From Minisyncoccota bacterium (GTDB lineage Bacteria; Patescibacteriota; Minisyncoccia; Phycocordibacterales; CAJBRS01), in NCBI GenBank assembly GCA_017881075.1, contig JADGRH010000002.1, positions 21,654 to 85,653 on the forward strand: a DNA stretch of 64,000 nucleotides, in the 5' to 3' direction. Positions 33,216-46,305 of this stretch are shown here, in pieces; positions within the stretch are counted from its first letter, which is position 1; every line of letters starts with the position of its first letter. The notes below the pieces were generated by a model that saw nothing but the letters and a program-made list of their open reading frames with translations, was not told the DNA's origin and ran no database searches. The translations under genes were made by a program, and so were the position numbers.

Positions 33216-33252
33216 GAGAATATTATAAACTATATTGTCTCGATATCACTGA

Positions 33253-33426: not shown

Positions 33427-33431
33427 TACTA

Positions 33432-33447: not shown

Positions 33448-33453
33448 AACATA

Positions 33454-33481
33454 ATTATATTTCTTTACTTTATTTTGTCAA
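33454..33481 (-). promoter_or_regulatory. near-consensus sigma70 promoter on the minus strand (TTGACA-16-TATAAT), module head B
   Basis: identical to the promoter at 24379-24406. Confidence 0.6.
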
Positions 33482-33503
33482 AGCTTTTTATTTAAAAATT
33501 CTA

Positions 33504-33550
33504 CGTCGAAAGTCTGCTGATTTCGACGCGATTTTTACGCTTAAAAATCG
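33504..33550 (+). other. two adjacent perfect hairpins 5' of repeat R7
   Basis: identical to 24429-24475. Confidence 0.8.
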
Positions 33551-33578
33551 GCTGGGGGTCTGGTACGATGTTGGAACC
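33551..33578 (+). repeat. repeat R7 (consensus)
   Basis: seen directly. Confidence 0.9.
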
Positions 33579-33728
33579 TTTTTGACGAGTTTTACCCCCT
33601 AAGACCTTAAGATTCAATCCCTACCCACGGAGTAATTTATTTGACTTTCTAAGTATAGTATGGTAATGTTATCTTGAAACATTCCAATTGCAGGTAGCAA
33701 AAAACTTGCATAACCCGAGGACATTTAC

Positions 33729-34103
33729 ATGACCAAGAAAGTTCTTAAATTGCTGATTCTCGTCTCTATAGTGACTGTTGCCTTCATTGGCGGCCGTCTC
33801 ACCACTCCTCAGCCTCAAGTCGCTGACAATGCTGTGTATGAAAAAGCATGGCATTGGTGTGATGAACAAGCATTCAAGGGGCACGACGTAGCCTTCTTTG
33901 AACTTGCAAAGAAACAGATTCGAGCTCGCCAGATTCGCTGGAGCATCAACGATTCATCAGGGCTTCATTACAGCCTTCTCGTCTTGTTCGCCAAAAGCTA
34001 CGATGAGATGGTCGAGAGAGAATCCGTGACCCCCGAGGAGTTCGTTAAGCAAATAGCACCTGTTCTGAAGGAGTTAGCCAAGGCTCCTCGACCCTCAACT
34101 TGA
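33729..34103 (+). CDS. hypothetical secreted protein (cassette ORF)
   Basis: signal-peptide-like N-terminus; TTGACT-17-TAATGT promoter-like sequence upstream. Confidence 0.45.
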   Translation: MTKKVLKLLILVSIVTVAFIGGRLTTPQPQVADNAVYEKAWHWCDEQAFKGHDVAFFELAKKQIRARQIRWSINDSSGLHYSLLVLFAKSYDEMVERESVTPEEFVKQIAPVLKELAKAPRPST

Positions 34104-34168
34104 CCGCTTCAGTGCGAGACAAAAGCCAAACTGTCTTACGATGGGGCGGCTTTTTATTTAAATTCCTC

Positions 34169-34228
34169 GCTGTGGGTCTGGCCCGCCTGCCTAGCTACCG
34201 CAGGTGCGGGCAGGTACGATGTTGGAAC
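34169..34228 (+). repeat. repeat R8, carrying the 33-bp GC-rich hairpin insertion CCCGCCTGCCTAGCTACCGCAGGTGCGGGCAGG between TCTGG and TACGAT
   Basis: seen directly. Confidence 0.85.
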
Positions 34229-34300
34229 TTTTATTACCCACTTTCATGCTATTGACAAAATTACCACAATAAGGTATTATTCAGATAGGAAAGGACAAAT

Positions 34301-34495
34301 ATGAAAGAAGGTATTCTACTTCTCTTCCCCGTTCTCGGGCTGATTCCGCTTGTAGCCATGCTACTCTGGATCAAAAAGAAACAGGGTAAGGGACTGATGA
34401 TTCTCCTTAGCATCTTGATCTTTGCTGCCATTGTTTGGGCGTGTGTTCATTACCAAATCCGAATTTACGATAACGGCGGCTTGGGACTTTACTAA
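34301..34495 (+). CDS. small membrane protein (cassette ORF)
   Basis: 64 aa, two TM segments, terminator follows. Confidence 0.35.
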   Translation: MKEGILLLFPVLGLIPLVAMLLWIKKKQGKGLMILLSILIFAAIVWACVHYQIRIYDNGGLGLY

Positions 34496-34565
34496 GCGAG
34501 ATTCATTCCAACACGAGACGAGCTCTGACCACACAAGTCATCTCGTTTTTTATTTAAAATTCCTA

Positions 34566-34612
34566 CGTCGAAAGTCTGCTGATTTCGACGCGATTTTTAG
34601 GCTTAAAAATCG
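34566..34612 (+). other. two adjacent hairpins (third copy of the module-head leader) 5' of repeat R9
   Basis: the second hairpin loop is GGCT instead of CGCT. Confidence 0.8.
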
Positions 34613-34640
34613 GCTGGGGGTCTGGTACGACGTTGGAACC
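34613..34640 (+). repeat. repeat R9 (ACGACG variant)
   Basis: seen directly. Confidence 0.9.
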
Positions 34641-35482
34641 TATTTGACTGTAAAAATATCACTCACTAGCGAGGAATTATCAGAGAAATTTATATCTAAA
34701 TGATAAGCTCCAGGAGAAATACTCGTTGGAACCATCCAAACATAGGATTCCCCATGTACTCCAGCAGCAATTTTTGTTGGAATAGTGTCATGAAAATTGT
34801 CTTTAGGTTCAGCCTTCAGAAATATATCCGCGGTGTAATTATCTTCGGATGGCTTAGCCAACCATTTTAAAGTATAAGTTTGACCTCTAATAAATTCCGC
34901 TGCTACTTCAGGAAAAACAAATCTAGGATATGGAAAAAGTACTTCGTTAAGAGATACTTCTCCAACATACGGTAAAGTCAATTTTGAAACTAAATTGCCC
35001 TTAAGATCGTACCCTTGAATGTCTACTTTTGATACATGGATACCAACGGCAGATTCTAAAGCATTCCAATACCAGGATTGAGTTCCATCAAGCGCTGTGG
35101 CTTGCAGTTGTGCTGATCCTAATTGTTGAGATTGAGTTATCCCTGTTCCGGTTGGCCAACCATATATCTTTACACTCGCTAACCCTTTTCCATATATAAA
35201 CAGTTCAGGTTTACTTATTGTAAACTTTAAGAGAAAAGGTGTCACAGACACTGAAACGGTAGTAGTTGCAAAAGAATTAACTTGGGAATTGGTAGACGAG
35301 TTGTTTGAAGTAGATATTGTATTAAGCTGATCAGTAAATGTGGTTGAAGCTGTTAAAGAGACGCCATTATTTACTTGAGCACTTTTATTATGAATGTAAA
35401 TGTAAATTCCTCCGCCAATCGCCAAAGCAACAATAATGATAATCAAAAAAGGAACAACAAATCCTTTTTGGATATTTTTCAT
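34640..35482 (-). CDS. hypothetical secreted/anchored protein (cassette ORF)
   Basis: 280 aa, N-terminal TM, Ser/Thr-rich. Confidence 0.5.
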   Translation of the reverse strand: MKNIQKGFVVPFLIIIIVALAIGGGIYIYIHNKSAQVNNGVSLTASTTFTDQLNTISTSNNSSTNSQVNSFATTTVSVSVTPFLLKFTISKPELFIYGKGLASVKIYGWPTGTGITQSQQLGSAQLQATALDGTQSWYWNALESAVGIHVSKVDIQGYDLKGNLVSKLTLPYVGEVSLNEVLFPYPRFVFPEVAAEFIRGQTYTLKWLAKPSEDNYTADIFLKAEPKDNFHDTIPTKIAAGVHGESYVWMVPTSISPGAYHLDINFSDNSSLVSDIFTVK

Positions 35483-35516
35483 AATTAAAATGATATCACG
35501 AAATTAGCATTTTCTC

Positions 35517-35634
35517 GCTGGGGGTTTGGCCCGCCTGCCTAGCTACCGCAGGTGCGGACAGGTACGATACTCCCTGTTTGTTCAAGAGGCCTTGCGATTG
35601 ACTACAAACAGCAGTCCCCGTAGGGGGTTGGAAC
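35517..35634 (+). repeat. repeat R10, carrying both the 33-bp hairpin insertion and a 58-bp second insertion
   Basis: the second insertion, ACTCCCTGTTTGT...ACAAACAGCAGTCCCCGTAGGGG, is homologous to part of the R1 insertion. Confidence 0.85.
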
Positions 35635-35710
35635 TTTTTTGATGAGTTTTGGTACTTGACATAATACAGATATGTCATAAAGTCATATCAGAAATCAACT
35701 GGAAATACTT

Positions 35711-35947
35711 ATGGCACTAGCAACTACTCAAGGAAAAGAATTCGCCCTGAAAGCTCTTGGGGAAAGACGAGATCGTAACAAAACACGAGAACGAATCGAC
35801 AATACGGCATTACTCGCGGGTAGAGAAATGCATTTTGACTGCCTCGGCTGTGGGGATGACCTCATTGTCCCCGAAAATTATCTCAGGCGACCGAATTTAT
35901 GCGTGGAGTGTCAAGCACTCAAAACGTTGGGTTGGCTTGATCAATAA
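35711..35947 (+). CDS. hypothetical zinc-ribbon protein (CLGCG...CVEC)
   Basis: 78-aa ORF. Confidence 0.4.
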   Translation: MALATTQGKEFALKALGERRDRNKTRERIDNTALLAGREMHFDCLGCGDDLIVPENYLRRPNLCVECQALKTLGWLDQ

Positions 35948-35998
35948 GTATCAAGCGTTCCGTTAGCCGTCCTGTTGTGGCGGCATTTTATTTTTCTT

Positions 35999-36025
35999 GC
36001 TGGGGGTCTGGTACGATGTTGGAAC
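35999..36025 (+). repeat. repeat R11
   Basis: seen directly. Confidence 0.9.
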
Positions 36026-36052
36026 TTTTTTGGGAAATCGCTCAGAAAGTAG

Positions 36053-36430
36053 CTATAAATAGGTTCGGAGTTGTTCAACCGCACTATCAATTAATTCATC
36101 GTCGGGTACCACTTTTTCTAAAGCATCATAGATTGTAACTAGGCACTGAACCGCATCAGTTACCTTATCATTTGGATTCGGACCGAATTTACTTTCCAAG
36201 AAATGAACGACGTTGTTTTTCTCAATCGCTTCTATAATTTCTGTTCTTTCTTTTTCCATGTCCGCCTTCTCTGCAACGGTATGTTCTCCGCCAAGTGTTG
36301 CTCTAGGTGGTGTAGTCTGAAACAAATAGCTTTCCCTTAAGAGGGGCGTGACAAGGTTTCGAAATATTGGAGCACTCTCTGTAGAAGAGGTAACGCCATC
36401 ATTTTCTATTTCTCTTTCACGAAAAGTCAT
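36053..36430 (-). CDS. hypothetical protein (cassette ORF)
   Basis: 125-aa ORF. Confidence 0.45.
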   Translation of the reverse strand: MTFREREIENDGVTSSTESAPIFRNLVTPLLRESYLFQTTPPRATLGGEHTVAEKADMEKERTEIIEAIEKNNVVHFLESKFGPNPNDKVTDAVQCLVTIYDALEKVVPDDELIDSAVEQLRTYL

Positions 36431-36475
36431 AAATTTATAGTAGTAAAACTAGTAAATAAAAGCAAGATGTTTGAT

Positions 36476-36503
36476 GCTGGGGGTCCGGTACGATGTTGGA
36501 ACC
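36476..36503 (+). repeat. repeat R12 (TCCGG variant)
   Basis: seen directly. Confidence 0.9.
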
Positions 36504-36559
36504 TACATGACAGATAGACAAATAAAGCAAGGTGTGGTAAAAGTTATCACAGGTAAAAC

Positions 36560-36799
36560 ATGAGTGACGAAAACAAATGCAGTAATTGTGAGGCGCTCAG
36601 CAAGAGCAATTCGACAAAGCCAGCTGTACCCATGAATGGGACATGCAACGACATCTTGCATGAATGTCCTCTGGACGGACAGAAATGGTGGCAAATGAAT
36701 ACCCACTTTCATCTGTGGCAGAAAGTCAAAGATGACAAGCAATGGGAAGCGTTAAGAGAGGACCTTCGGCGACCGGTACAATCTGGTCACTTCTGGTAG
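36560..36799 (+). CDS. hypothetical Cys-rich protein (CSNC...C..C)
   Basis: 79-aa ORF. Confidence 0.4.
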   Translation: MSDENKCSNCEALSKSNSTKPAVPMNGTCNDILHECPLDGQKWWQMNTHFHLWQKVKDDKQWEALREDLRRPVQSGHFW

Positions 36800-36859
36800 G
36801 AAATGAATTTGGAGAGCTCGGATGACAACCCCTGCTCTCTTTTTATTTAAAAATTCCTC

Positions 36860-36887
36860 GCTGGGGGTCTGGTACGATGTTGGAACC
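36860..36887 (+). repeat. repeat R13 with the full extended context
   Basis: seen directly. Confidence 0.9.
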
Positions 36888-36951
36888 TTTTTAATGAATT
36901 TAAGCCATCAAATACCTAGGTTCGATACCTGCTCACCGAGTTTTGAAATAT

Positions 36952-37311
36952 CTATTCACCATCTCTAATTAAACGCACAAAGTAAGTCATTCCCTTTCCT
37001 ATATTTTGAGCTCTTTTATACCCAATCCCCATTAAAACTATATTAGCCATAACAGGTGGCTTTCCTTGATCTAAAATAACTGACTCCTCTGAAGCCCAGT
37101 AAGCACCTTCTTTAAAACCTTTTGTCTTTAATCTATCCGCCTCAAGAAGTTCCTCTGATGTAGGAAGTCTCCAAGGTTTTTCTCCTTCTGGTAGATTAGT
37201 GTTTAACTCTTCAATTATTCTGATGGCATCATCCCAATTTATACGAGTATCTATATCAATACCCCACTCTGACTTTAAGCTTTCTTGATTTGGAGTTCCT
37301 TCATTTTCCAT
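36952..37311 (-). CDS. DUF1566 (Lcl C-terminal domain)-like protein
   Basis: W-x-A...KPWRLPTSEEL pattern typical of the family. Confidence 0.45.
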   Translation of the reverse strand: MENEGTPNQESLKSEWGIDIDTRINWDDAIRIIEELNTNLPEGEKPWRLPTSEELLEADRLKTKGFKEGAYWASEESVILDQGKPPVMANIVLMGIGYKRAQNIGKGMTYFVRLIRDGE

Positions 37312-37346
37312 ATCTATTTATCATACCAAAAAAGTTCTAATAATTT

Positions 37347-37374
37347 GCTGGGGGTCTGGTACGATGTTGGAACC
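37347..37374 (+). repeat. repeat R14
   Basis: seen directly. Confidence 0.9.
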
Positions 37375-37391
37375 TTTGTTAGGATTTAGAC

Positions 37392-37706
37392 ATGGAATTC
37401 TTTCGTGAATCAGAACTAGATAAATTAATAAAAGAGCGAAATTCTAATGGCTGGGTTATGGCTGGATATGAGAAGTTAACAGTAACGAGGTTTCAGCCCG
37501 ATGCCAGATTTTTAGACGTGCCACTTCAGAGTGAAGATGATATAAAGAAAAAATATAAAAATGATGATACAGAAGTAGAACTAGTTTTAGCACCAAATCA
37601 TAAGTTAGAAGAAATTAGAAAAATACTTTCCCCTGAAGAATTTGCCAAAGCCTCTGTTCCTGATAGTGAGAAATCTTATTACGTATTCGTAAAAAAGAAA
37701 AATTGA
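37392..37706 (+). CDS. hypothetical protein (cassette ORF)
   Basis: 104-aa ORF. Confidence 0.45.
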   Translation: MEFFRESELDKLIKERNSNGWVMAGYEKLTVTRFQPDARFLDVPLQSEDDIKKKYKNDDTEVELVLAPNHKLEEIRKILSPEEFAKASVPDSEKSYYVFVKKKN

Positions 37707-37708
37707 TT

Positions 37709-37736
37709 GCTGGGGGTCTGGTACGATGTTGGAACC
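37709..37736 (+). repeat. repeat R15
   Basis: seen directly. Confidence 0.9.
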
Positions 37737-38020
37737 TATTTAGACTCTTTATTCATTTCGTCTCTCTCGAGTGCGTCCCCATCAATTGCGTCCAATAATT
37801 GACCCAACTCAACATTGCTCCAATCTTTATAAACGGATTTTTGCTGATTTTCATTGTCAGCTCCACGACTCCAAGCCTCAATGTCATTTCTTGTTTTTGT
37901 GTATATTTCGGGACTTATCTTCCTTACAGTTGCTAATTGCCTTACTTTTTCCCAAAATTCGTCAGTAGAAATCTCAGCCATATTTTCTATTTCATTTGGA
38001 TCATTTTCTCTTGATTCCAT
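37736..38020 (-). CDS. hypothetical acidic protein (cassette ORF)
   Basis: 94-aa ORF. Confidence 0.4.
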   Translation of the reverse strand: MESRENDPNEIENMAEISTDEFWEKVRQLATVRKISPEIYTKTRNDIEAWSRGADNENQQKSVYKDWSNVELGQLLDAIDGDALERDEMNKESK

Positions 38021-38126
38021 AAGGATAATTTAAGTTATGTTTAATATTTTTATTATACCAGATTCACCCGTCCTATTCTTATCTATTTTTAAATGGCTAA
38101 TCTAAAAGAGATTTTAATGCTTCCTC

Positions 38127-38154
38127 GCTGGGGGTCTGGTACGACGTTGGAACC
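38127..38154 (+). repeat. repeat R16 (ACGACG variant)
   Basis: seen directly. Confidence 0.9.
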
Positions 38155-38169
38155 TTTTTGACCTGAGTG

Positions 38170-38388
38170 CTATGCCTTACGCCATTGATTTGGCTTTCCC
38201 TTGTTAGTATGCCGAACTCGCTCAACGTCAGGTCGTACGCCCGGAAAAAGCTTTTGAGCTTTAGCTATAGCTTTTGCCTGCGTAGGAGCAACAACGGAAG
38301 CGCGCTTTGAGTGTTCTTGCCTCACAGCATAATCTTTCTCTTCTGATCGTCGTTCTATGTATACATCTCCCTTTCTTAATTTAGTCAT
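38170..38388 (-). CDS. DUF2188-like small protein
   Basis: DVYIERRSEEKDYAVRQEHSKRAS...TQAKAIAKAQKL pattern resembles DUF2188. Confidence 0.45.
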   Translation of the reverse strand: MTKLRKGDVYIERRSEEKDYAVRQEHSKRASVVAPTQAKAIAKAQKLFPGVRPDVERVRHTNKGKPNQWRKA

Positions 38389-38394
38389 AGCGAT

Positions 38395-38751
38395 TTAATT
38401 AATATGATTCGCCTCCGCTTGTTGTTTTGCTAATTCATTAATGGCAATTATGTTTGCGCCAAACCCTGTTCTATAATGTTTACTCCGAGAGCTCCTTTTG
38501 AACAAAAACTTAGTAATTTTCTCTCTACCTACTAACGGTGCAATCTTTTTATCTTTTCTAGGGTCGTCCCACATTGAAACTACTTCCCACCCCACAGCAC
38601 CCAACTCGTTCAGCATTAAGTTAAAATATTCTCTTTTGTGTTCTAAATTCTTGTATTCTTTTGAGTCGTAGTCATGCTCATCAAACTCTTCGTTGCTAGG
38701 ATTGAACATCCCGTGTACTAAGTACTCAAAACTCTGATCTAGAAATTTCAT
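38395..38751 (-). CDS. hypothetical protein
   Basis: 118-aa ORF, 6 bp downstream of the previous gene. Confidence 0.45.
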   Translation of the reverse strand: MKFLDQSFEYLVHGMFNPSNEEFDEHDYDSKEYKNLEHKREYFNLMLNELGAVGWEVVSMWDDPRKDKKIAPLVGREKITKFLFKRSSRSKHYRTGFGANIIAINELAKQQAEANHIN

Positions 38752-38774
38752 AACATTGAGTATACCAAATTCTT

Positions 38775-38806
38775 TTGACGGATGTCTGGGACAACATTGG
38801 GACCCA
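38775..38806 (+). repeat. degenerate repeat R17 (GACGGATGTCTGGGACAACATTGGGACCC)
   Basis: about 65% identity to the consensus in the expected position. Confidence 0.6.
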
Positions 38807-38825
38807 TTAGAGACATAGAATTTAA

Positions 38826-39035
38826 TTAATTTATTTCTTCAGCCTTCTCGCCGTACAACTTCATACTTTGAGCCTGTAAAGCTTCCAACGAATTATACTG
38901 ACCAACTACCTTCATTGGGGTCAAATATGGCAAATGATGTGAGGTTCTATCGTCTTCCATTTCATAGATAGGATGTATTAGAATGAAATCATCGCCCATT
39001 TTTCTGTAGCAAGGTTTAGCTAAGGGTTGTGTCAT
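38826..39035 (-). CDS. hypothetical protein
   Basis: 69-aa ORF. Confidence 0.35.
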   Translation of the reverse strand: MTQPLAKPCYRKMGDDFILIHPIYEMEDDRTSHHLPYLTPMKVVGQYNSLEALQAQSMKLYGEKAEEIN

Positions 39036-39076
39036 ATCTAAACTCTACAATAAAAAATAATGTTTAAAAAGTGTGG

Positions 39077-39104
39077 GCTGGATGTCTGGTACGATGTTGG
39101 AACC
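39077..39104 (+). repeat. repeat R18 (GCTGGATGTCTGG variant)
   Basis: seen directly. Confidence 0.85.
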
Positions 39105-39135
39105 TGTTTGTATCAAAAGTGATATAATCAGAAAT

Positions 39136-39591
39136 ATGACTGATAATAAAGAAAATACAGGCGTAACACTGACACCAGCTCAAACTGTTGATCTATTAAT
39201 GAGGCTTTATGATGCTAGATTTAACTATATGCCAGATGGCACTGTTCAAATTGATGTTAAAGTGCAAAATCTTATAGAAGAACTTGCGACAAACGCCGAA
39301 AAATCTTTTGGTCATGTAAAAGATGCTCAAGGAAAGAGTGTTTTTGGTGAGGCTTACGAGAAATATCGTAAAGGTCAAGATGCTATATTAAAAATCAGCG
39401 ATTTAGTAGTTTTAAATCCTAATGCTACGGCTTCTGATAAACAAGTTCATATAGAAAAAATATTAAAACTTAGTGAGACTGTAACAGGTAGATTATTCAT
39501 TCAACAAAGTATAGATGAATTTAAGACCGTAACGGGAGTCGATTTGAGTGAAAATATTAAAGCAATTCAAAAACTTTCTGACCATAAATAA
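39136..39591 (+). CDS. hypothetical protein (cassette ORF); start moved downstream of the repeat
   Basis: the ORF track opens at 39073 inside the repeat; MTDNKENT is the first Met after it. Confidence 0.45.
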   Translation: MTDNKENTGVTLTPAQTVDLLMRLYDARFNYMPDGTVQIDVKVQNLIEELATNAEKSFGHVKDAQGKSVFGEAYEKYRKGQDAILKISDLVVLNPNATASDKQVHIEKILKLSETVTGRLFIQQSIDEFKTVTGVDLSENIKAIQKLSDHK

Positions 39592-39647
39592 TTTTGTTAT
39601 AAATTACAATGTATAATCAGTTAAATTAACAAGCTATGTTTGCAACA

Positions 39648-39673
39648 CTGTGGGTCTGGTACGATGTGGAACC
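39648..39673 (+). repeat. repeat R19 (CTGTGGGTCTGGTACGATG-TGGAACCC; 1-nt deletion)
   Basis: seen directly. Confidence 0.8.
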
Positions 39674-39686
39674 CATATCAATAATT

Positions 39687-40004
39687 TTATTTCCAGGGGA
39701 GGCCCTTCTGAATCAAAATATAGGGTAAATAACCGGTTATTCCATAAAAAGCTACAATAAGAACTAGAAAATCTCCGATCTCTAAGGTGGTGAAAGAATG
39801 TATCCTCCAAAATATAAAATAAGCTAAGGCAATCCACCCCACTAATGAACCAATGAAATTTAGGATCCACTGACTCATACGTAATGGCCATGGAAAATCT
39901 CTCCACTTTTTCAGAGGCAGTCCATGAATTGTGGGGGTAAAGTATGTAATAAGAAAACTGGAAAGGATTGCAACTGCCCAATATGTTATATAAATAGAAG
40001 TCAT
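39687..40004 (-). CDS. membrane protein (cassette ORF)
   Basis: 105 aa, 3 TM segments; preferred over the overlapping 39634-39981 frame. Confidence 0.4.
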   Translation of the reverse strand: MTSIYITYWAVAILSSFLITYFTPTIHGLPLKKWRDFPWPLRMSQWILNFIGSLVGWIALAYFIFWRIHSFTTLEIGDFLVLIVAFYGITGYLPYILIQKGLPWK

Positions 40005-40046
40005 ACGTTATTAGTTATTATATCAAGATTCTAATTTGAAAATACT

Positions 40047-40076
40047 GCGTTGGGGGTTTGGGACGACGCTGGATCC
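40047..40076 (+). repeat. degenerate terminal repeat R20 (GCGTTGGGGGTTTGGGACGACGCTGGATCC)
   Basis: seen directly; last copy of the array. Confidence 0.7.
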
Positions 40077-40085
40077 TTTTTGAGG

Positions 40086-40577
40086 TTAACTCCAGATTTC
40101 ACTAGCTCTAGGTTCAAATTGTCTTAATATCTTTAGATAGTCTGCCTGAATATTCTGCTCGGCCCATTTAGGATACAACTCTCCTATTTGCCCATTTTTC
40201 ATCGAAATCTCATTACATGGCCCAAAAAAGAAGCCGTCTGGCGAGGCAATGAAAAGCCATGAGGGGTTCCACATTTTTAGAATGTCGTCCGTAATTTCTT
40301 TTATTTTACTTGGATCACGTCTAGTACAGAATTTAACTTCTACCAAATATACTTCTTTCTTATCCTGAGATATCAAGACAAAATCAGGAGCATTTCTTAT
40401 ATTTTCAAGAACGGCTTTTACTTCGGCTAGGTGTTGATATTGAGCAAGTTCCGGTAGTGTATATTCATAACCGGATCTGAGAATCGTATATTTCCCTGAT
40501 TCCCGAAACATTTGTTCAAAAATAGTTTCAGCGATTCTCCCTTTTATTAACTCTTTTGTAAATTCAATTTTATTCAT
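40086..40577 (-). CDS. PD-(D/E)xK nuclease-fold protein
   Basis: APDFVL...VYLVEVKF matches the PD...ExK catalytic core arrangement. Confidence 0.45.
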   Translation of the reverse strand: MNKIEFTKELIKGRIAETIFEQMFRESGKYTILRSGYEYTLPELAQYQHLAEVKAVLENIRNAPDFVLISQDKKEVYLVEVKFCTRRDPSKIKEITDDILKMWNPSWLFIASPDGFFFGPCNEISMKNGQIGELYPKWAEQNIQADYLKILRQFEPRASEIWS

Positions 40578-40588
40578 TTGGGTCTGGA

Positions 40589-41278
40589 TTACTCAATGCC
40601 ATCTAACATAGTCTGACTTAACGATATCGGCTTAGCTCCCGCAATATGCATAGGTTCTCGAATATCAAGAGCCGGATTTACTTGTGAAGGAATTCTAAAT
40701 GATATCGACATGACACCAATTACTTTATTGGACTCGATATCAATCAAAGGACATCCGCTATTTCCCGGATTACTTATCGCGTCTACGATAAACCAATCAA
40801 GTGGGTTCGGTGCTTGTGCTTTTCGTTTTACAGAACTGATTATTCCCTTATTCGCTATTAAGGTTAGGCCGAACCCGTCTTTTAACAAATTTACTGCATA
40901 AGGAAACCCAATGAAGTAAACGTCCTGACCCTCAACAATTGACTCGGAAAATTCTATTTTCAATGGCTTCAATAAATTAGGTTGAGTATTTGGTTTTAAT
41001 TTTAAAATGGCCATATCGTTTTCAAGAGCTTTTGTTTGGACCTCTACATTAAACCAATTATATTTTAGAAGATGACCTTCAGTTTCAGAAGCCACCATAC
41101 AGCCTAAATTAGTTAATTGATCTGGACTAAAATTTTGAATCAAATGGGCGGTTGTTAAGATAAATTGATTACTATGTACACAAAAACCACTTCCAAGAAT
41201 ATTCAATTGGCCATTATTAAGTGTGCCAACCGCTACGATGGAATTTATTACATCTTTTATATCACTCTTTAAGTTCAT
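40589..41278 (-). CDS. trypsin-like serine peptidase
   Basis: GSGFCVHSNQFILTTAHLI (His region) and GNSGCPL (Ser region) motifs. Confidence 0.6.
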   Translation of the reverse strand: MNLKSDIKDVINSIVAVGTLNNGQLNILGSGFCVHSNQFILTTAHLIQNFSPDQLTNLGCMVASETEGHLLKYNWFNVEVQTKALENDMAILKLKPNTQPNLLKPLKIEFSESIVEGQDVYFIGFPYAVNLLKDGFGLTLIANKGIISSVKRKAQAPNPLDWFIVDAISNPGNSGCPLIDIESNKVIGVMSISFRIPSQVNPALDIREPMHIAGAKPISLSQTMLDGIE

Positions 41279-41281
41279 AGT

Positions 41282-41500
41282 TTATTTAATTGTATTATTA
41301 ATAATAGCCGGACTATCTACGTTTGTGGCGTTATTAATAATATTTTGTGTGCCAATATTATTAATAATGTTATCACCATTTTTATTTTTTTGCTTGGAGA
41401 GATTCTTTTTATAAATGCTGATGCCTGTAAGGCCAATGAGTCCTAGAGTTATCCCTGCGGCGACAGAAGCAATATAGTTTACTAAGATAATTTCAATCAT
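41282..41500 (-). CDS. small membrane protein with Asn/Ile-rich tail
   Basis: 72-aa ORF, one TM segment. Confidence 0.3.
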   Translation of the reverse strand: MIEIILVNYIASVAAGITLGLIGLTGISIYKKNLSKQKNKNGDNIINNIGTQNIINNATNVDSPAIINNTIK

Positions 41501-41554
41501 GGCTACCTATAATACTAAGAGGGCTTTATCTAATATGCAGATAATAAAGTACTA

Positions 41555-41869
41555 TTATCCATTTGTCCACCACGCACCTAGATTAGACCAAAAGACCATT
41601 ATGAATCCAATGATGATTAAAATTATCCCATACACTACGGATTTAAATAGGATAAAGAAGCCGAGAAAAATTATAAAAGATGCCCAGACCCCCATCTTCT
41701 TCCATTTCTTAGCTGTTTGTTCAATCTCTATCACTTTTACCACCTCTACCACCTTCTTGTCTTCCTTAGCCTCAGTAGACTGAGGATGGATCGGATTACC
41801 ACAGGAGATACACGCACTTGCTTTGTCTGATATCTCTTTTCCACATTCTGAACATTTTATAAGCGACAT
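41555..41869 (-). CDS. zinc-ribbon plus TM small protein
   Basis: MSLIKCSECGKEISDKASACISCG followed by 2 TM segments; start taken at the internal Met. Confidence 0.35.
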   Translation of the reverse strand: MSLIKCSECGKEISDKASACISCGNPIHPQSTEAKEDKKVVEVVKVIEIEQTAKKWKKMGVWASFIIFLGFFILFKSVVYGIILIIIGFIMVFWSNLGAWWTNG

Positions 41870-42414
41870 AAATTTTATTTGCTTAATAGATTTATAAATA
41901 CAAAAAGCCCACCACGGGTAGTGGCCGAAGCCACTCAAACCGGTTTCCCGATAAGGCTGGATACAGCAACCCCATGATGGGTTTTTTATGCTGTATCCAG
42001 ACTTTTCGCCATGCCAACAATTTCTCATTGGTTTAGGCCATATTCAGTTGTAGATAAATTATAACACTAAAATAAGAAAATCTTGACTTGCAATTACTTT
42101 TACGAGGAGTAGAATCGTCGTTAATCAGGGTTCCCCAAAGAGGGATACTAGGAGGATATATTGCCCCACCCATTGTTTAGTTTTATCAGTTTCTTAACTA
42201 ATACAAGGCGGGGTGTTTTCTTTTTCCTCACAACTTATTGAGGAGACAATAAAAGTTTTTCGTGAAGAGAACGATCTAGAATTGTCTCCAGAGAAAGCCA
42301 ACGAATATTTAAATGCGTTTGCTGGCTTGTTTTTGGCGTTTCGGGATATGCCCGCAAGCCCGAGCTCTTTAGAGCCGGGCGGCGGGCTTCCGGACGACAA
42401 TCAAGACGATTCAA

Positions 42415-42439
42415 CCCTAGGTGTTAGTAACACCTAGGG
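42415..42439. promoter_or_regulatory. perfect 25-bp palindrome CCCTAGGTGTTA-G-TAACACCTAGGG, 19 bp upstream of the Rep-like gene
   Basis: 12-bp perfect arms; candidate operator or origin/nick hairpin. Confidence 0.5.
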
Positions 42440-42457
42440 TACGTTGCATATTGCACC

Positions 42458-43501
42458 ATGATAGACACCATTAAATTTTTAATACCAATGAAAGATCATA
42501 AACTCTTTGAACAACTAAAAGGCAACCTAATGCGATTCAGGAAAGATGATTTAAAAACTGGAAAAATGGAGTTTGAATTTTTCAGTAGCAATATTGAACT
42601 TGGCTCCTATCAGCGTTCAGTTGCCATAAAATCAACTGATGTACCCCAAGGATTCTTCATTGAATTTTCGGTCCCGAAGTATGCCAAGGGAAATAACGTG
42701 GAGATGATTTATCCGCATGACCTTCCTGATATTATGGCGAAACTTTATGAGGAATTATGCAACCACATGAATTACCGGCTTCTGCATTTCTCTCTATGGC
42801 CAATATATCGCCTTGATGTCTGCTACAACTGGATTTTCAAAAATGAGAGTGAGGCGGTCTATGCTATGGATTTTCTAAGGAGAATTGATTTTCCTCGCAA
42901 GAAAAAATACACCTATGACACCTCGGTTATGCATAAAGGCAGTGCTTACACCATAAAGTTTTATGCCAAAGGGCCAGAATTTAAAGCCCATGATTTTAAG
43001 AAAATTGAATTTAATCATGCCCTTAGTCTTCAGTCTTGGGCAGATCGGATAGTCCGGTTTGAAGTGAATTTGAAACGAATCTACCTACAGCAGTTTTTTC
43101 TGCTTGATGTAGTGTATATGAAAGATGTCGTTGATGATGAAAGCATTTTGGAAATCCTTAAATATTATTTGGAGAAAAAAGTATTTTTCTATCTTAATGC
43201 AAATTCTATGACTGATGAGAGCATAAAGCAGATATTGTTTGATAACTTTACCAAAATAAAAGCTACCCGCCTTTACCAGTTCTACAAGGATTTTTATTTT
43301 AGCGATGAGATGAAAAACATGCTTCTGCGGGGTGGCCTGAACAGAAGCACCATCTACCGATACAAGAAAGATTTAAAGAGGGTGGGTATAGGCATTTCAA
43401 TGGAAAAGTCGCCAAGTAGTATTAACATTTTAGAGCAGTTAGTCATTCCGTCCCCGAACTCCCGCTTTGATTTAATTGATTATCAATTTAAGGAAGTATA
43501 A
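42458..43501 (+). CDS. hypothetical protein, possibly a Rep_trans-type replication initiation protein
   Basis: 347 aa; loose similarity to the Rep_trans pattern (Y..K...RFE.NLKR); lies next to the serine recombinase. Confidence 0.3.
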   Translation: MIDTIKFLIPMKDHKLFEQLKGNLMRFRKDDLKTGKMEFEFFSSNIELGSYQRSVAIKSTDVPQGFFIEFSVPKYAKGNNVEMIYPHDLPDIMAKLYEELCNHMNYRLLHFSLWPIYRLDVCYNWIFKNESEAVYAMDFLRRIDFPRKKKYTYDTSVMHKGSAYTIKFYAKGPEFKAHDFKKIEFNHALSLQSWADRIVRFEVNLKRIYLQQFFLLDVVYMKDVVDDESILEILKYYLEKKVFFYLNANSMTDESIKQILFDNFTKIKATRLYQFYKDFYFSDEMKNMLLRGGLNRSTIYRYKKDLKRVGIGISMEKSPSSINILEQLVIPSPNSRFDLIDYQFKEV

Positions 43502-43511
43502 TATTGCCAAT

Positions 43512-45047
43512 ATGAAATTCATCATCTACTGCCGAAAATCAACAGACAGCGAAGATAGACAGGTTCTTTCTTTGGAATCTCAAGAAAACGAACTTAAACG
43601 ACTTGCTGAAACTAATGATCTAAAAATTGTTTCCATTTTTCGGGAGAGTATGTCGGCCAAAGAGCCGGGCCGTCCAGTATTCAATGACATGATGAAAATG
43701 ATTCTCTCTGGAAAGGCTGACGCAATTCTGTGTTGGAAGATAGATCGTCTTACTCGTAATCCTGTTGATGGTGGGCAGATTCAATGGTTGCTTCAGACTA
43801 ATAAAATAAATTGCATTAGAACTTTTGAAAAAAGTTTCTACCCGAATGACAATGTCCTACTGATGAGCATTGAACAAGCCATGGCTAGTCAGTACATCAG
43901 GGATTTGAGTGTGAATGTTAAACGAGGTAATCGGGAGAAGTTAGCCAGAGGAGAGTGGCCTAATCATGCTCCTTTCGGATATTTGAATGATAAGGCCAAT
44001 AAGACTATCGTTGTTGATCGGGCTAATTCTAAATACGTTTCTAGAGTATATGACCTCTATGTTAATAATCATAAAAACTTTAAGGAAATTTCATCTTTTC
44101 TTCATAACGAGGGTTTGAGGACAAAGTCTGGTGGGAAAGTTATGAAAAGTCACATTCAGAGAATTCTCTCCAATCCATTTTATTCCGGTATCATGCTCCG
44201 AGAAGGAAAATATTATCAGGGCAACCATGAGCCGTTAATTCCGAAAAGTGTCTTCGATCAAGCCCAAGAAATTATGCAAGGAAAACTGCACCCTAAATCA
44301 AAACGATTATTCTTTCCACTCCGAGGATTCCTCTCTTGCGATAACTGCGGTTGTTCTCTCACTTCCTCCCTCAAAAAAGGCCACCAGTATTACTACTGCA
44401 CTAACGGCAAGGGTAGCTGTGAGGAACACAAAAGCTATCTCCGAGAAAACCAGCTTTATGGCGTGGTCGCCAATATCCTCGCCAATATTGATTTTACCGA
44501 GCCAAAGATTGAAAAAATGTATCAAGCGGCTAAGGAGAAATCTGACTTTGAGAGTGGGTATATCATTCAGAACTTAAAGACCCTAGAGACACAGCTAGAA
44601 TCGCTTAAAACGAAAGAATCTCGCCTTCTAGACACCTTCCTAGCCGAGCAGATACCGAAAGACCTTTACGATCAAAAAACTTTAGAATTGCAGAATGAAA
44701 AATTCTCACTAGAAAAAAGGATTAAAGAGTTTAAAATCCAACAACCCGCTTTTACTTTGGAACCGATTAAAAGTATGTTTCTGGAAGCCAGTAGAGCCAA
44801 AGTAGCATTTCTTAACGGAGATGATTACAAGAAAAGAAAAGTGATAGAAAATTTTGTTTGGAACTTATCGCTGAAAAACAAATCTGTGGCTCAAATGAAA
44901 CTCGTCGGGCCTTATGAAGTGATGTTCAAAGCACCTAAAAACGGCAGTATGCGTGAATTGCTGGGGGTCTGGGACTCGACCCGAGCTTTTATTGAGTTGG
45001 GCCGCTGTAGGGAGGGAGATATAACATTGGATCAAGGTATCCGTTAA
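43512..45047 (+). CDS. large serine recombinase
   Basis: resolvase catalytic domain IYCRKSTDSEDRQVLSLESQ (active-site Ser), recombinase domain, zinc ribbon CDNCGC...YYYC, C-terminal coiled coil. Confidence 0.85.
   Translation: MKFIIYCRKSTDSEDRQVLSLESQENELKRLAETNDLKIVSIFRESMSAKEPGRPVFNDMMKMILSGKADAILCWKIDRLTRNPVDGGQIQWLLQTNKINCIRTFEKSFYPNDNVLLMSIEQAMASQYIRDLSVNVKRGNREKLARGEWPNHAPFGYLNDKANKTIVVDRANSKYVSRVYDLYVNNHKNFKEISSFLHNEGLRTKSGGKVMKSHIQRILSNPFYSGIMLREGKYYQGNHEPLIPKSVFDQAQEIMQGKLHPKSKRLFFPLRGFLSCDNCGCSLTSSLKKGHQYYYCTNGKGSCEEHKSYLRENQLYGVVANILANIDFTEPKIEKMYQAAKEKSDFESGYIIQNLKTLETQLESLKTKESRLLDTFLAEQIPKDLYDQKTLELQNEKFSLEKRIKEFKIQQPAFTLEPIKSMFLEASRAKVAFLNGDDYKKRKVIENFVWNLSLKNKSVAQMKLVGPYEVMFKAPKNGSMRELLGVWDSTRAFIELGRCREGDITLDQGIR
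44960..44975 (+). repeat. half-copy of the array repeat (GCTGGGGGTCTGGGAC) inside the last 90 nt of the serine recombinase gene; identical to the left half of R1
   Basis: 16/16 nt identical to 24476-24491. Confidence 0.7.
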
Positions 45048-46305
45048 CGGCAGCGATAGGGAGACGGTATGTGCGGCCGCCGCAGGCTTTGCTGGGAAGG
45101 TTTTGCATTGAGACGGCGGCGGAAGCGTAAACGCTTAAGTGAAGATGTGGACCGGTGGCATAGCCGGTAGAGCCGCTATAGCCAATAACATCGCCGCGAT
45201 GAACTAGCTGCCCTTCTTTAACTGAAATAACGGATAAGTGGCCATAAGTGCTGGCCAAGCCATTGTTATGACGGATGAAAACAAATCGGCCAAAAGAAGC
45301 GCCCGGACAGACCAGATCTGTGTCAGCTGCACCTTCCACCTTGCCGTCTGCTACAGCCATGACTTTTGTGCCGACCGATGCACCAAAATCAACACCGTTA
45401 TGTGAGCCGGAAACATAAAGTCGAGCTGAGGCGTTGGTGACGCCGAAAAGTTGGGTAATGCGAATGCTGGCGAGTGGCCAGGAAAGCGGTGACGAGCCAA
45501 CTTTCGGCAAGCTTGCAGGATTTAATATAAATTGGAGTTTGGATTGAAAATCAAAAAGATCTTTTTCAAAAGCTGCTTTTTTGGCTTGTTTATCGGCGAT
45601 GATTTGTTGATAAGTTTTTTCCTGATTCTTGGTTTGTGTTAGTAATTGAGTTTGTTGTTGTTGATTATAAGCAATAGCTTTTTTCTTATCGGATAGGTTC
45701 CCCTCATAACTGACCAAATTAGTTTTTTGAGTTTCTGTCTGACTTTTATCATTCTCGAGACCTGCCTTTAAATTTTCCAATTCATTCACTTGATCTTTCA
45801 CTCTACTTTGGAAACGCAACAAGTCGTCAATGCCATTCCAAATTTCTCCAACGCTCTGGTGACTTAGAAAGGAAACAATAATACTGGCTGATTCATTTTG
45901 TTGCATTTGGCGCATCGCTTCACCGATGGCTGCTCGGCCGTCGATAATATTTTGCTGTTCATCAGTAATCTGAAGACCTAGTTTTTGAATATCAAGGTTC
46001 GCCGCCGCAATTTTATTTTCAGTCAATTTGATATCGGCATCCAATTTTTTCTGAGAGGCCTGCAGGGTGGCGATAGCATTCTGAAGAGTTCTGGCGGCAG
46101 CACTGGTTTTGTCGGCCAAGGCCTGATATTGGGCGATCTCTTTTTCCAATTCGGCGATGTTGACATTTCGTTCATCAATCTGTTTTTGGAGATCGCTGGC
46201 ATTATCGGCATGAACTGGAAGGGGCGGCAGGCGGACGAATAAAACGCCTGCCGCTGCCAAAAGAAAAAGAAGAAAAATTATTTTATTTGATTTTTTGAAT
46301 GGCAT
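44989..46305 (-). CDS. M23 family metallopeptidase with a coiled-coil N-domain (EnvC-like)
   Basis: HNGVDFGASVGTKV...GYSGSTGYATGPHLH M23 motifs; long coiled coil. Confidence 0.75.
   Translation of the reverse strand: MPFKKSNKIIFLLFLLAAAGVLFVRLPPLPVHADNASDLQKQIDERNVNIAELEKEIAQYQALADKTSAAARTLQNAIATLQASQKKLDADIKLTENKIAAANLDIQKLGLQITDEQQNIIDGRAAIGEAMRQMQQNESASIIVSFLSHQSVGEIWNGIDDLLRFQSRVKDQVNELENLKAGLENDKSQTETQKTNLVSYEGNLSDKKKAIAYNQQQQTQLLTQTKNQEKTYQQIIADKQAKKAAFEKDLFDFQSKLQFILNPASLPKVGSSPLSWPLASIRITQLFGVTNASARLYVSGSHNGVDFGASVGTKVMAVADGKVEGAADTDLVCPGASFGRFVFIRHNNGLASTYGHLSVISVKEGQLVHRGDVIGYSGSTGYATGPHLHLSVYASAAVSMQNLPSKACGGRTYRLPIAAVNGYLDPMLYLPPYSGPTQ

What the first reader, a model, noticed from the sequence alone, without database searches (positions are those of the whole stretch)
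42415..45047. Rep-like gene preceded by a perfect 25-bp palindrome, translationally coupled to a large serine recombinase
The palindrome CCCTAGGTGTTA-G-TAACACCTAGGG sits 19 bp upstream of a 347-aa protein with loose Rep_trans-like features. That gene's stop lies 11 nt before the serine recombinase start. A recombinase, an initiator and a hairpin origin or operator form a minimal integrative/replicative mobile-element backbone at the right end of the cassette array.
Basis: partly seen in the sequence, partly recalled or inferred. Interest (0 to 1): 0.55.

Follow-up and report, generated by a model that had tools for sequence, protein, structure and literature searches.

The report
Integrating rolling-circle element of Patescibacteria
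The flagged genes are the conserved core (small protein, replication initiator with a hairpin origin, large serine integrase) of a little-known family of small mobile elements in ultra-small Patescibacteria; these normally insert at the ends of tRNA genes, and here the core sits beside an unusual array of about 19 mini gene cassettes that carry the element's own attachment-site arm.

Summary
A 27-bp palindrome (42414..42440) lies 17 nt before a 347-aa ORF. A 511-aa large serine recombinase (LSR) gene follows 10 nt after that ORF's stop.

The module orf74–Rep–LSR is conserved in about 20 distinct Patescibacteria loci. The palindrome is conserved there too, with compensatory arm changes and an invariant GTAACACC.

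In 17 loci the LSR gene's 3' end overlaps, antisense, the 3' end of a tRNA gene. Each element's left end carries a conserved ~23-nt arm (..TGGTACGAWGTTGGAAC), which was absent from the 80 related host loci that lack the module. The elements are 4.5–10 kb, carry variable cargo and have no virion genes.

In this window the module closes an 11.7-kb insertion that is absent from the nearest relatives. It abuts only a tRNA-Gln-like fragment. About 19 short cassettes precede it, each headed by the same arm.

Verdict: an integrative, probably rolling-circle-replicating element and a new variant of a known kind. The cassette array is the surprising part.

The parts
42213..42437 (+). orf74: small conserved protein, first gene of the module. 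The C-terminus TLGVSNT* is encoded by the palindrome.
   Evidence: tblastn finds it upstream of Rep in nearly all related loci at 39-56% identity, always ending about 20 nt before the Rep ATG. No Pfam, NCBIfam or PADLOC hit.
42414..42440 (.). Conserved hairpin/palindrome: probable double-strand origin (nick region) for Rep.
   Evidence: Perfect 13+1+13 palindrome. Present at the same place in 20 related loci. Of 11 pairs, 5 show changes on both sides, 27 compensated cells; 0 of 500 shuffles reach this, and slid controls give 21.6-45% paired against 87.9%. GTAACACC is invariant. DNA fold -14.6 kcal/mol, z -5.8.
42441..42457 (+). Conserved spacer ACGTTGCA-N3/4-TTGCAcc between hairpin and ATG: candidate Rep-binding repeats or translation control.
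   Evidence: Columns 37-44 and 48-51 of alignment A3 are invariant or nearly so across 21 loci. In several loci it forms a second small hairpin GTTGCA/TGCAAC.
42458..43501 (+). Rep: rolling-circle replication initiator, gene II / Phage_CRI family, 347 aa. Candidate catalytic Tyr169 in the invariant F168-Y169-x-K171.
43512..45047 (+). Large serine recombinase (511 aa; Ser10 in YCRKS). The conserved part ends near residue 487-493 (about 44972-44990). The last ~20 codons read through the tRNA-like fragment into the 3' end of the host M23 peptidase gene.
   Evidence: Resolvase + Recombinase + Zn_ribbon_recom domains, all above cut-off. PHROG 95 integrase E 1.5e-83. SPbeta SprA structures E 4.6e-14. 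Homolog alignments stop at residue 484-493. C-termini compared.
44934..44987 (+). Right attachment junction: P arm (end of the conserved LSR coding sequence), core GCTG, then a tRNA-Gln-like acceptor/T-arm fragment in antisense (44960..44987).
   Evidence: Same layout as the attR of 17 loci where a complete tRNA follows. Here no tRNA is called. Host sequence resumes at 44988.
40049..40077 (+). Degenerate left site of the 4.9-kb Rep-LSR unit (GTTGGGGGTTTGGGACGACGCTGGATCC).
   Evidence: Last member of repeat family D1, 68% identical to the reference copy. Unit length 4.9 kb, within the 4.5-10 kb range of related elements.
40086..41869 (-). Cargo of the unit: 163-aa protein (weak nuclease-like hits), 229-aa trypsin-like protease, 72-aa membrane protein, 104-aa zinc-ribbon membrane protein.
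   Evidence: Trypsin_2 E 1.5e-20 and Zn_Ribbon_1 E 1e-6. The protease hits PADLOC PDC-M35A at E 2e-15. The zinc-ribbon protein is 52% identical to a cargo gene of L111.
41920..42039 (-). LOOT RNA (Rfam RF03000), divergent from orf74-Rep-LSR.
   Evidence: 82 bits against gathering score 46.4, E 1.2e-14. Found at the same relative position in the elements of L089, L110 and L111.
33551..40077 (+). Cassette array B: 13 same-strand copies of GCTGGGGGTCTGG|TACGATGTTGGAACC(TTT), spaced 362-950 bp, with about one ORF per interval.
   Evidence: The motif matches the left-end site of related Rep-LSR elements and is absent from the 80 host loci without the module.
24476..27800 (+). Cassette array A: 6 copies of the same site, closed on the right by a second tRNA-Gln-like fragment GCTGGGGATTAAGGACTCGAACC (27776..27798). 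No recombinase gene is adjacent.
33231..44987 (.). Whole insertion relative to the nearest related genomes (11.76 kb).
   Evidence: In L001 and L002 the M23 peptidase gene is directly followed by the homolog of window ORF 31377..33215. GC content drops to 0.34-0.40 over 37-45 kb.
33248..33322 (-). tRNA-like gene at the left edge of array B (second copy at 24173..24247 at the left edge of array A).
   Evidence: Rfam tmRNA/tRNA-clan hits of 36 and 30.8 bits, below gathering score. Cloverleaf-like fold at -30.5 kcal/mol. The anticodon-stem sequences of the two copies differ at three base pairs, each changed on both sides. It is part of a 300-nt module repeated at 88% identity.

Best explanation
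Region 42213..45047 is the core module of a small integrative element that probably replicates by rolling circle. It belongs to a family common in Patescibacteria.

Shown:
- The three genes orf74, Rep (gene II / Phage_CRI family) and a large serine recombinase are kept together in about 20 distinct loci.
- A hairpin just upstream of rep is conserved, with compensatory changes in its arms.
- The LSR gene's 3' end overlaps, antisense, the 3' end of a tRNA gene in 17 loci.
- A conserved ~23-nt arm (..TGGTACGAWGTTGGAAC) marks the opposite end of each element.

Inferred:
- The LSR recombines an attP with the 3' terminus of a tRNA gene. This attP is made of the end of the LSR's own coding sequence (P arm), a 4-13 nt core shared with the tRNA terminus, and the P' arm. 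The crossover would fall within that shared core.
- After excision the circle is nicked by Rep (Tyr169) at the hairpin (invariant GTAACACC) and copied by rolling-circle replication.
- The cargo (here a protease/nuclease-like pair, elsewhere a CD-NTase, RloB/AAA or NERD) rides along.

This particular copy is atypical. It ends at a tRNA-Gln-like fragment rather than a tRNA, and its own left site is degenerate. About 19 short cassettes headed by intact P' arms lie upstream of it. They are most simply explained as units inserted in tandem by the same recombinase chemistry.
For: - Family assignment.
- Fold.
- Module conservation.
- Hairpin conservation and covariation.
- The asymmetry of conservation (right arm and loop GTAACACC invariant, inner left arm variable) fits strand-specific recognition better than a symmetric operator.
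- tRNA overlap: LSR stop positions against ARAGORN and Rfam tRNA calls.
- Left-end motif only in Rep-LSR loci, always on the same strand upstream of the module, 0 hits in the 80 host loci.
- Tandem junction P|P' in L116, where an LSR ORF runs through the core and P' motif and is followed by a second element.
- Empty site in the nearest relatives.
- No virion genes: no Zot/pI, coat or PHROG structural hits.
Against: - No circular or excised form was found. No contig has terminal overlap and there are no hits in IMG/VR.
- The nick site, Rep activity and LSR activity are untested.
- In this window the outer junctions of the island do not coincide with the inferred crossover, and no tRNA exists at this site in 33 related genomes. 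The arrival of the island is therefore not explained by simple LSR integration.
- The unit's own left site has several mismatches, so this copy may be immobile.
- Cassette ORFs have no homologs in other elements. One distant homolog sits in an ordinary context, so there is no independent evidence that the cassettes move.
Confidence: 0.7

Rival explanations
1. It is a filamentous (inovirus-type) prophage, or a satellite of one. Rep would make single-stranded circles that are packaged by its own or a helper phage's virion proteins, as for CTXphi with its satellites RS1 and TLCphi.
For: Rep belongs to the gene II/Cri family. Its nearest phage relatives are an inovirus Rep (24% identity, E 3e-8) and the Rep of the ssDNA phage FLiP. 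Inoviruses with serine recombinases have been reported in CPR bacteria (10.1101/548222). The elements are inovirus-sized (4.5-10 kb).
Against: No Zot/pI ATPase or coat-like family appears in any ORF of the unit or the cassettes that was scanned. Cargo differs from locus to locus, so there is no conserved structural module. No match in IMG/VR. A satellite lifestyle cannot be excluded.
Confidence: 0.15
2. The palindrome is not an origin. It is a regulatory element: an operator for a dimeric repressor, or an mRNA hairpin that controls translation of rep after orf74.
For: It lies between the orf74 stop and the rep ATG. It overlaps a coding end and has near-perfect dyad symmetry in many loci. A second conserved motif reaches the start codon.
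Against: Conservation is asymmetric: GTAACACC is invariant while the inner left arm varies. The outer arms covary to keep pairing. No T-run follows the stem, so it is not an intrinsic terminator. Origins of both gene II and Rep_trans initiators are hairpins next to binding repeats (established knowledge). The two roles are not mutually exclusive.
Confidence: 0.2
3. The copy in this window is a fixed, domesticated remnant. The genes persist, but the element no longer moves and the arrays are decayed relics of old insertions.
For: The left site at 40049 is degenerate. There is no complete tRNA at the right junction. The LSR C-terminus runs into the host M23 gene.
Against: All three ORFs are intact and full length. 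Twelve or more array sites are almost identical over about 30 nt, which argues for recent activity or selection rather than decay.
Confidence: 0.2

Closest known systems
Tycheposons of Prochlorococcus (Hackl et al., bioRxiv 10.1101/2020.12.28.424599)
   Same: Small elements made of an integration module, a replication module and cargo. They insert at tRNA genes. Later arrivals push older ones inward, leaving partial tRNAs and building islands. A minority (27 of 937) use a large serine recombinase.
   Different: Most use tyrosine recombinases and primase/helicase replication genes, not a gene II-type rolling-circle initiator. Different phylum. No regular array of sub-kilobase cassettes is described.
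Integrative filamentous phages with a serine recombinase (phiRSM group) and the satellites TLCphi/RS1 of CTXphi
   Same: They have a gene II/Cri-family initiator. phiRSM integrates at a tRNA gene 3' end through a serine recombinase (own knowledge; PMC7192596, cites the phiRSM group as resolvase-like serine-recombinase integrases). RS1 and TLC lack virion genes and sit in tandem arrays (own knowledge).
   Different: phiRSM uses a small resolvase-type enzyme and has virion genes. TLC, RS1 and CTX use host XerCD at dif. Here the enzyme is a large serine recombinase and no virion genes were found.
Actinomycete integrative and conjugative elements (pSAM2 type; PMC2440964)
   Same: Integrated in tRNA genes. 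After excision they replicate by rolling circle from their own Rep.
   Different: Tyrosine integrase plus Xis, a different Rep family, and FtsK-like transfer genes. None of these is present here.
Staphylococcal cassette chromosome (SCCmec; Ccr large serine recombinases)
   Same: A large serine recombinase inserts at the 3' end of a conserved gene. The site is regenerated, so cassettes accumulate in tandem, including ones without a recombinase (own knowledge).
   Different: The target is rlmH, not a tRNA. Cassettes are tens of kb. Ccr models score 79-87 bits against cut-offs of 700-900, so the window LSR is not a Ccr.
Integrons
   Same: Array of short, mostly single-gene cassettes, each with a copy of a recombination site, next to a site-specific recombinase gene.
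   Different: Integrons use a tyrosine recombinase (IntI) and attC sites that fold as single-stranded hairpins. Here the enzyme is a serine recombinase and the sites are about 30 nt and not palindromic. The array is separated from the LSR-proximal site by the 4.9-kb unit.
Rep_trans plasmid initiators (RepC/RepD of the pT181 family; PDB 4cwc, 4cij)
   Different: No Rep_trans match was listed in the Pfam scan at E up to 1. The window protein also has an extra C-terminal helical domain with a weak G2P_X_C match (E 0.043, below cut-off).

Membership tests
Gene II / Phage_CRI (rep_II_X) rolling-circle initiators | Match to the family profile above the curated cut-off | tested here: met
   PF05144 66.7 bits (cut-off 21.7), residues 1-214. 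TIGR01629 44.7 bits (cut-off 29). PHROG 702 E 2.5e-28.
Gene II / Phage_CRI (rep_II_X) rolling-circle initiators | Conserved active-site tyrosine for covalent attachment to the nicked strand | tested here: inconclusive
   F168-Y169-x-K171 is invariant in 32 homologs down to 49% identity. Assigning it as the catalytic residue rests on analogy with the Yxx(K) motifs of other initiators, not on an alignment to a mapped residue.
Gene II / Phage_CRI (rep_II_X) rolling-circle initiators | Cognate origin: palindrome with nick site plus adjacent binding repeats near the gene | tested here: inconclusive
   Conserved, covarying hairpin plus a conserved downstream motif directly upstream of rep. Nicking is not testable with these tools.
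Rep_trans (PF02486) initiators | Sequence match to the Rep_trans profile | tested here: not met
   Not listed among Pfam hits at E up to 1. Only fold-level similarity.
Large serine recombinases (serine integrases) | Resolvase catalytic domain with N-terminal serine, plus Recombinase domain, plus zinc-ribbon domain with a coiled-coil insert | tested here: met
   PF00239 75.9 bits, PF07508 56 bits, PF13408 26.3 bits, all above cut-off. Ser10 lies in IYCRKS. Match to SPbeta SprA structures. The coiled-coil-like stretch around residues 340-420 was seen by eye only.
Large serine recombinases (serine integrases) | Defined attP/attB giving hybrid attL/attR with a short common core | tested here: met
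   Twelve loci (11 of them distinct elements) show a left site and a right site sharing 4-10 nt that start at the tRNA 3' terminus. The position of the crossover is inferred, not mapped.
Inoviruses (filamentous phages) | pI/Zot-type morphogenesis ATPase and small coat proteins | tested here: not met
   No such Pfam or PHROG family in the ORFs of the unit, the cassettes or the cargo of L081 and L107 that were scanned. Divergent coat proteins could escape detection.
Integrons | IntI tyrosine recombinase with attI and attC sites of imperfect inverted repeats | tested here: not met
   The recombinase is a serine enzyme. The repeated site has no dyad symmetry.
SCC elements (Ccr recombinases) | CcrA/B/C equivalog score and insertion in rlmH | tested here: not met
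   79-87 bits against cut-offs of 700-900. The targets here are tRNA genes.
tRNA-targeting integrative elements of this Rep-LSR family | A complete tRNA gene overlapping the LSR 3' end, and a P' arm at the far end | tested here: not met
   For the window copy no tRNA is called at 44960..45060; only an acceptor/T-arm fragment is there. The nearest left site is degenerate. The 17 related loci meet the tRNA feature; the P' arm was found in the 12 of them with enough left flank.

The most novel reading that the evidence does not exclude
The large serine recombinase runs an integron-like gene-cassette system. The ~19 sub-kilobase units, each headed by an intact copy of the recombinase's P' arm, would be recombinase-less mini-elements. 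The LSR would capture, stack and release them in trans at a tRNA-like acceptor site. This would be a serine-recombinase analogue of the integron in ultra-small Patescibacteria. A related point: the LSR's C-terminal tail is encoded across attP, so integration swaps it (..W-Y-D-V-G-T-F-L.. against antisense-T-arm residues). That swap could set directionality.
Probability: 0.3. Interest if true: 0.85.

Novelty: new variant of a known kind. Interest (0 to 1): 0.62.

Why it matters
Mobile elements of Patescibacteria (CPR) are poorly known, and these organisms have few recognised routes of gene exchange. This work defines a widespread family: 104 protein clusters at 50% identity match the Rep at E up to 1e-30.

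The family has a clear anatomy. Its attachment sites were deduced from many independent insertions.

It also gives unusually clean comparative evidence that large serine recombinases can target tRNA gene ends. A 2020 survey called that unreported and in need of proof (PMC7192596).

The attP/attB pairs for seven different tRNAs could interest people who mine serine integrases as genome-engineering tools. If the cassette array is made by the same enzyme, it would be a second, independent invention of the integron principle.

Tried and rejected
- Rep_trans membership: rejected by sequence, kept only as a fold resemblance.
- Foldseek against PDB: no significant hit. PDB sequence search with the Rep profile: nothing.
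- Inovirus prophage: no Zot or coat hits. No relatives of Rep and no P' motif in IMG/VR.
- Circular contigs: 12 short contigs checked for terminal overlap, none found.
- Ancestral tRNA at the insertion site: ARAGORN on 33 related host loci found none next to the M23 peptidase gene.
- Simple flanking direct repeats as attachment sites: only L098 shows a long (21-nt) repeat. The real signature is a short core plus a conserved P' arm.
- Cassette mobility:
  - Exact-protein look-ups for two cassette proteins returned nothing.
  - tblastn of 24 cassette and cargo proteins against all fetched loci gave only the zinc-ribbon cargo match in L111, plus one unrelated host hit.
  - A distant homolog of the 188-aa cassette protein lies in an ordinary context without P' sites. 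This is inconclusive.
- Promoter and terminator scans: no enrichment. Only a weak promoter-like site at 42088..42115 upstream of orf74, and a terminator-like hairpin formed by the T-arm fragment.
Full report
**1. The observation**

The sequence at 42414..42440 is ACCCTAGGTGTTA-G-TAACACCTAGGGT, a perfect inverted repeat with 13-nt arms. It ends 17 nt before the ATG of a 347-aa ORF (42458..43501). Ten nucleotides after that ORF's stop comes the ATG (43512) of a 511-aa ORF that ends at 45047. Only four other perfect palindromes with arms of 10 nt or more exist in the window, and two of them look like terminators. The finding's coordinates and description are correct.

**2. The two proteins**

The 347-aa protein:
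- It matches Pfam Phage_CRI ('Replication-associated protein G2P N-terminal') at 66.7 bits (cut-off 21.7), NCBIfam TIGR01629 rep_II_X at 44.7 bits (cut-off 29), and PHROG 702 'replication protein' at E 2.5e-28.
- No Rep_trans match was listed in the Pfam scan at E up to 1.
- An AlphaFold model built from 32 homologs is confident (pLDDT 87.5, pTM 0.82).
- Invariant residues across homologs down to 49% identity include the N-terminal MIDTIKF, E69/S71/K74/G78-N-N80/E82-M83, D120/N124-W125, F168-Y169-x-K171 and R200-x-E202. Y169 is my candidate for the nicking tyrosine, by inference.
- The closest phage relatives are an inovirus Rep (24% identity, E 3e-8) and the Rep of the ssDNA phage FLiP.

The 511-aa protein:
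- It is a canonical large serine recombinase with Resolvase, Recombinase and Zn_ribbon_recom domains, all above cut-off.
- It also matches PHROG 95 'integrase' at E 1.5e-83 and the SPbeta SprA structures at E 4.6e-14. Ser10 lies in IYCRKS.
- It is not a Ccr, XisF or IS607 equivalog; those scores are far below cut-off.

**3. Related loci**

The Rep has 191 relatives in the word-indexed search. An exhaustive search found 104 cluster representatives at E up to 1e-30. Where a source names the organism, it is Patescibacteria.

I fetched 37 loci that encode a Rep homolog, about 20 of them distinct elements.
- Wherever the contig continues, Rep is followed by an LSR, with a gap of -4 to about 180 nt (the largest holds an extra 49-aa ORF).
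- In almost all of them Rep is preceded by a homolog of a 74-aa ORF (window 42213..42437). That ORF ends about 20 nt before the Rep ATG.
- The module therefore has three genes.

**4. The palindrome across loci**

- The inverted repeat is present at the same position in all 20 loci examined.
- In a 21-sequence alignment, 5 of 11 arm pairs show changes on both sides, with 27 compensated cells. Examples are CCCTAGG/CCTAGGG, TCATAGG/CCTATGA, CCGAGG/CCTCGG and CCACAGG/CCTGTGG.
- 87.9% of cells are paired, against 21.6-45% when the partner is slid by 1-3 columns. None of 500 shuffles reaches the observed covariation.
- Conservation is asymmetric. G23-TAACACC30 and the downstream GTTG..TGCA are invariant, while the inner left arm varies.
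- As single-stranded DNA the hairpin folds at -8 to -17 kcal/mol, with z-scores of -2.9 to -6.1, in six loci.
- No T-run follows the stem, so it is not an intrinsic terminator.
- A pairing-constrained stem with a sequence-constrained loop and 3' arm, next to conserved short repeats and immediately upstream of the initiator gene, is the architecture of the origins used by gene II and Rep_trans initiators (established knowledge). I read it as the double-strand origin. A regulatory role is not excluded, and the two could coexist.

**5. Where the elements sit**

- In 17 distinct loci a tRNA gene on the opposite strand overlaps the last 12-60 nt of the LSR ORF. Compare the LSR stop coordinates with the tRNA calls.
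- The tRNAs are Lys, Ile, Trp, Gly, Ala, Gln and Val.
- The LSR C-termini consequently end in residues such as (D/E)SN(P/Q), which are the antisense reading of the T arm.
- More distant members (L113, L114) abut a sequence that matches the 3' end of a tmRNA gene (my reading; ARAGORN run for tRNA and tmRNA called nothing there), next to smpB.
- A 2020 survey found only 14 of 297 serine-integrase islands at t(m)RNA genes. It stated that such use had not been reported and needed proof (PMC7192596).

**6. The other end of the elements**

- 4.5-10 kb upstream of the tRNA, every locus with enough flank has a site of the form [4-10 nt identical to the tRNA 3' terminus][5-6 nt]TGG(T/G)A(C/G)GA(A/T)GTTGGAAC.
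- A strict version of this motif occurs 1-2 times in each such locus, always on the Rep strand. It does not occur in the 80 related host loci that lack the module.
- I infer the following:
  - The LSR's attP consists of the end of its own coding sequence (P arm), a short core, and this P' arm.
  - attB is the tRNA 3' terminus plus the acceptor/T-arm (B' arm), which the P' arm partly resembles (TGG..TCGAA against TGG.ACGAA).
  - The crossover lies within the shared core at the tRNA 3' terminus.
- In L116 an LSR ORF runs straight through the core and P' motif (..WDEVGTVFLIS*) and is followed by a second, Rep-containing element. That is a tandem P|P' junction.
- This suggests the native LSR tail is encoded across attP and is replaced on integration.

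**7. Cargo**

- The cargo is variable. Examples are a CD-NTase (L106), RloB/AAA_21 plus NERD (L116), and unknown proteins (L081, L107).
- In the window the cargo is a 163-aa protein with weak nuclease-like hits, a trypsin-like protease (PADLOC PDC-M35A, E 2e-15) and two small membrane proteins.
- No Zot/pI, coat or other PHROG structural family was found. Nothing related is in IMG/VR.
- These are therefore not recognisable inoviruses. A satellite lifestyle remains possible.

**8. This window in particular**

- In the two closest genomes (L001, 70-84% protein identity; L002) the M23 peptidase gene is followed directly by the homolog of window ORF 31377..33215. The window therefore carries an 11.76-kb insertion, 33231..44987.
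- Its right edge is the LSR 3' end joined to GCTGGGGGTCTGGGACTCGACCCGAGC. This is a tRNA-Gln-like acceptor/T-arm fragment (compare the attR of L111), not a tRNA.
- The LSR ORF then runs 59 nt into the M23 gene's 3' end.
- No tRNA lies at this site in 33 related genomes.
- The insertion holds 13 same-strand copies of GCTGGGGGTCTGG|TACGATGTTGGAACC, spaced 362-950 bp, with about one ORF in each interval. The last copy, at 40049, is degenerate. The 4.9-kb Rep-LSR unit follows it.
- A second array of 6 sites (24476..27362) lies beyond a block of syntenic host genes. It ends in another tRNA-Gln-like fragment (27776..27798) that abuts a host gene.
- Both arrays begin on the left with the same 300-nt module (88% identical). 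It contains a tRNA-like gene whose anticodon-stem sequences in the two copies differ at three base pairs, each changed on both sides.
- The arrays' site is the family's P' arm. Its 13-nt left part equals the sequence at the LSR end.
- With identical left halves, recombination between such a site and the LSR-proximal site would regenerate both. That allows repeated tandem insertion (inference).
- I could not show that the cassettes move. I also cannot explain how the island reached a site without a tRNA.

**9. Comparison with known systems**

- In logic the family matches tycheposons: integration plus replication plus cargo at tRNA genes, with tandem accretion.
- It also resembles pSAM2-type actinomycete elements.
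- In its Rep it matches integrative filamentous phages and their satellites.
- In recombinase chemistry and tandem stacking it resembles SCC elements.
- The array resembles an integron.
- It is a member of none of these (see the membership table).
- I found no paper describing Rep-LSR elements or such arrays in Patescibacteria. The library is limited, so this is absence of evidence only.

**10. Verdict**

The finding is confirmed and its interpretation is essentially right. What is there is the driver module of a family of tRNA-targeting, serine-integrase, rolling-circle elements: a new variant of a known kind. The notable extras are these:
- clean comparative evidence for tRNA targeting by large serine recombinases;
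- an attP that overlaps the recombinase's own stop codon;
- an exceptional array of P'-headed mini-cassettes, which might be a serine-recombinase counterpart of an integron (probability about 0.3).

Noticed in passing
window 41920..42039 (-); L089 5103-5228; L110 9404-9522; L111 9058-9175: LOOT RNA (Rfam RF03000, function unknown) occurs inside four Rep-LSR elements at the same place. It is on the strand opposite the module, a few hundred nt upstream of orf74, as the leader of the first leftward cargo gene (zinc-ribbon or DUF4352 protein). The L088 element instead carries a DUF3800-V RNA.
   Followed up: partly
window 33248..33322 (-) and 24173..24247 (-), with 33431..33445 and 24358..24372: A tRNA-like gene marks the left edge of both cassette arrays. 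It has a short D arm, a 9-bp anticodon stem, the loop CCUACCA and a normal T arm; ARAGORN does not call it. The two copies differ by three compensated base pairs in the anticodon stem. A third segment about 110 nt away, complementary to that stem-loop on the same transcript strand, changes in step with it.
   Followed up: partly
window 34182..34214 and 35530..35562; about 24489..24604 and 35568..35626: Small insertions lie exactly inside array sites. One is a 33-nt hairpin (cccgcctgcctagctaccgcaggtgcgggcagg) at the boundary between the left half and the P' arm. The other is a ~60-110-nt insert between TACGAT and GTTGGAAC. Each is present in two sites.
   Followed up: no
L116 1311-2933 and 7715-10334: Two LSR-bearing units lie in tandem. 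The first LSR ORF reads through a core plus P' motif (..WDEVGTVFLIS*). This suggests the recombinase's C-terminal tail is encoded across attP and changes on integration.
   Followed up: partly
L113 12780-12859; L114 8975-9053: More distant Rep-LSR elements (Rep 51% identical) end at TGGAGGTGGGCGGAGTCGAACCGCC, the antisense of a tmRNA-like 3' end, next to smpB. Some members therefore appear to target the tmRNA gene.
   Followed up: no
window 40086..41278 (-): The cargo pair is a 163-aa protein (weak restriction-enzyme/VRR-NUC-like hits) and a trypsin-like protease that matches the candidate defence family PDC-M35A (E 2e-15). Other elements carry a CD-NTase, RloB/AAA_21 or NERD. The cargo may be enriched in defence genes.
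   Followed up: partly
window 44989..45047: The LSR ORF and the convergent host M23 peptidase ORF overlap tail to tail by 59 nt. The M23 C-terminus is the same length as in L001, so the insertion left the host gene intact.
   Followed up: yes
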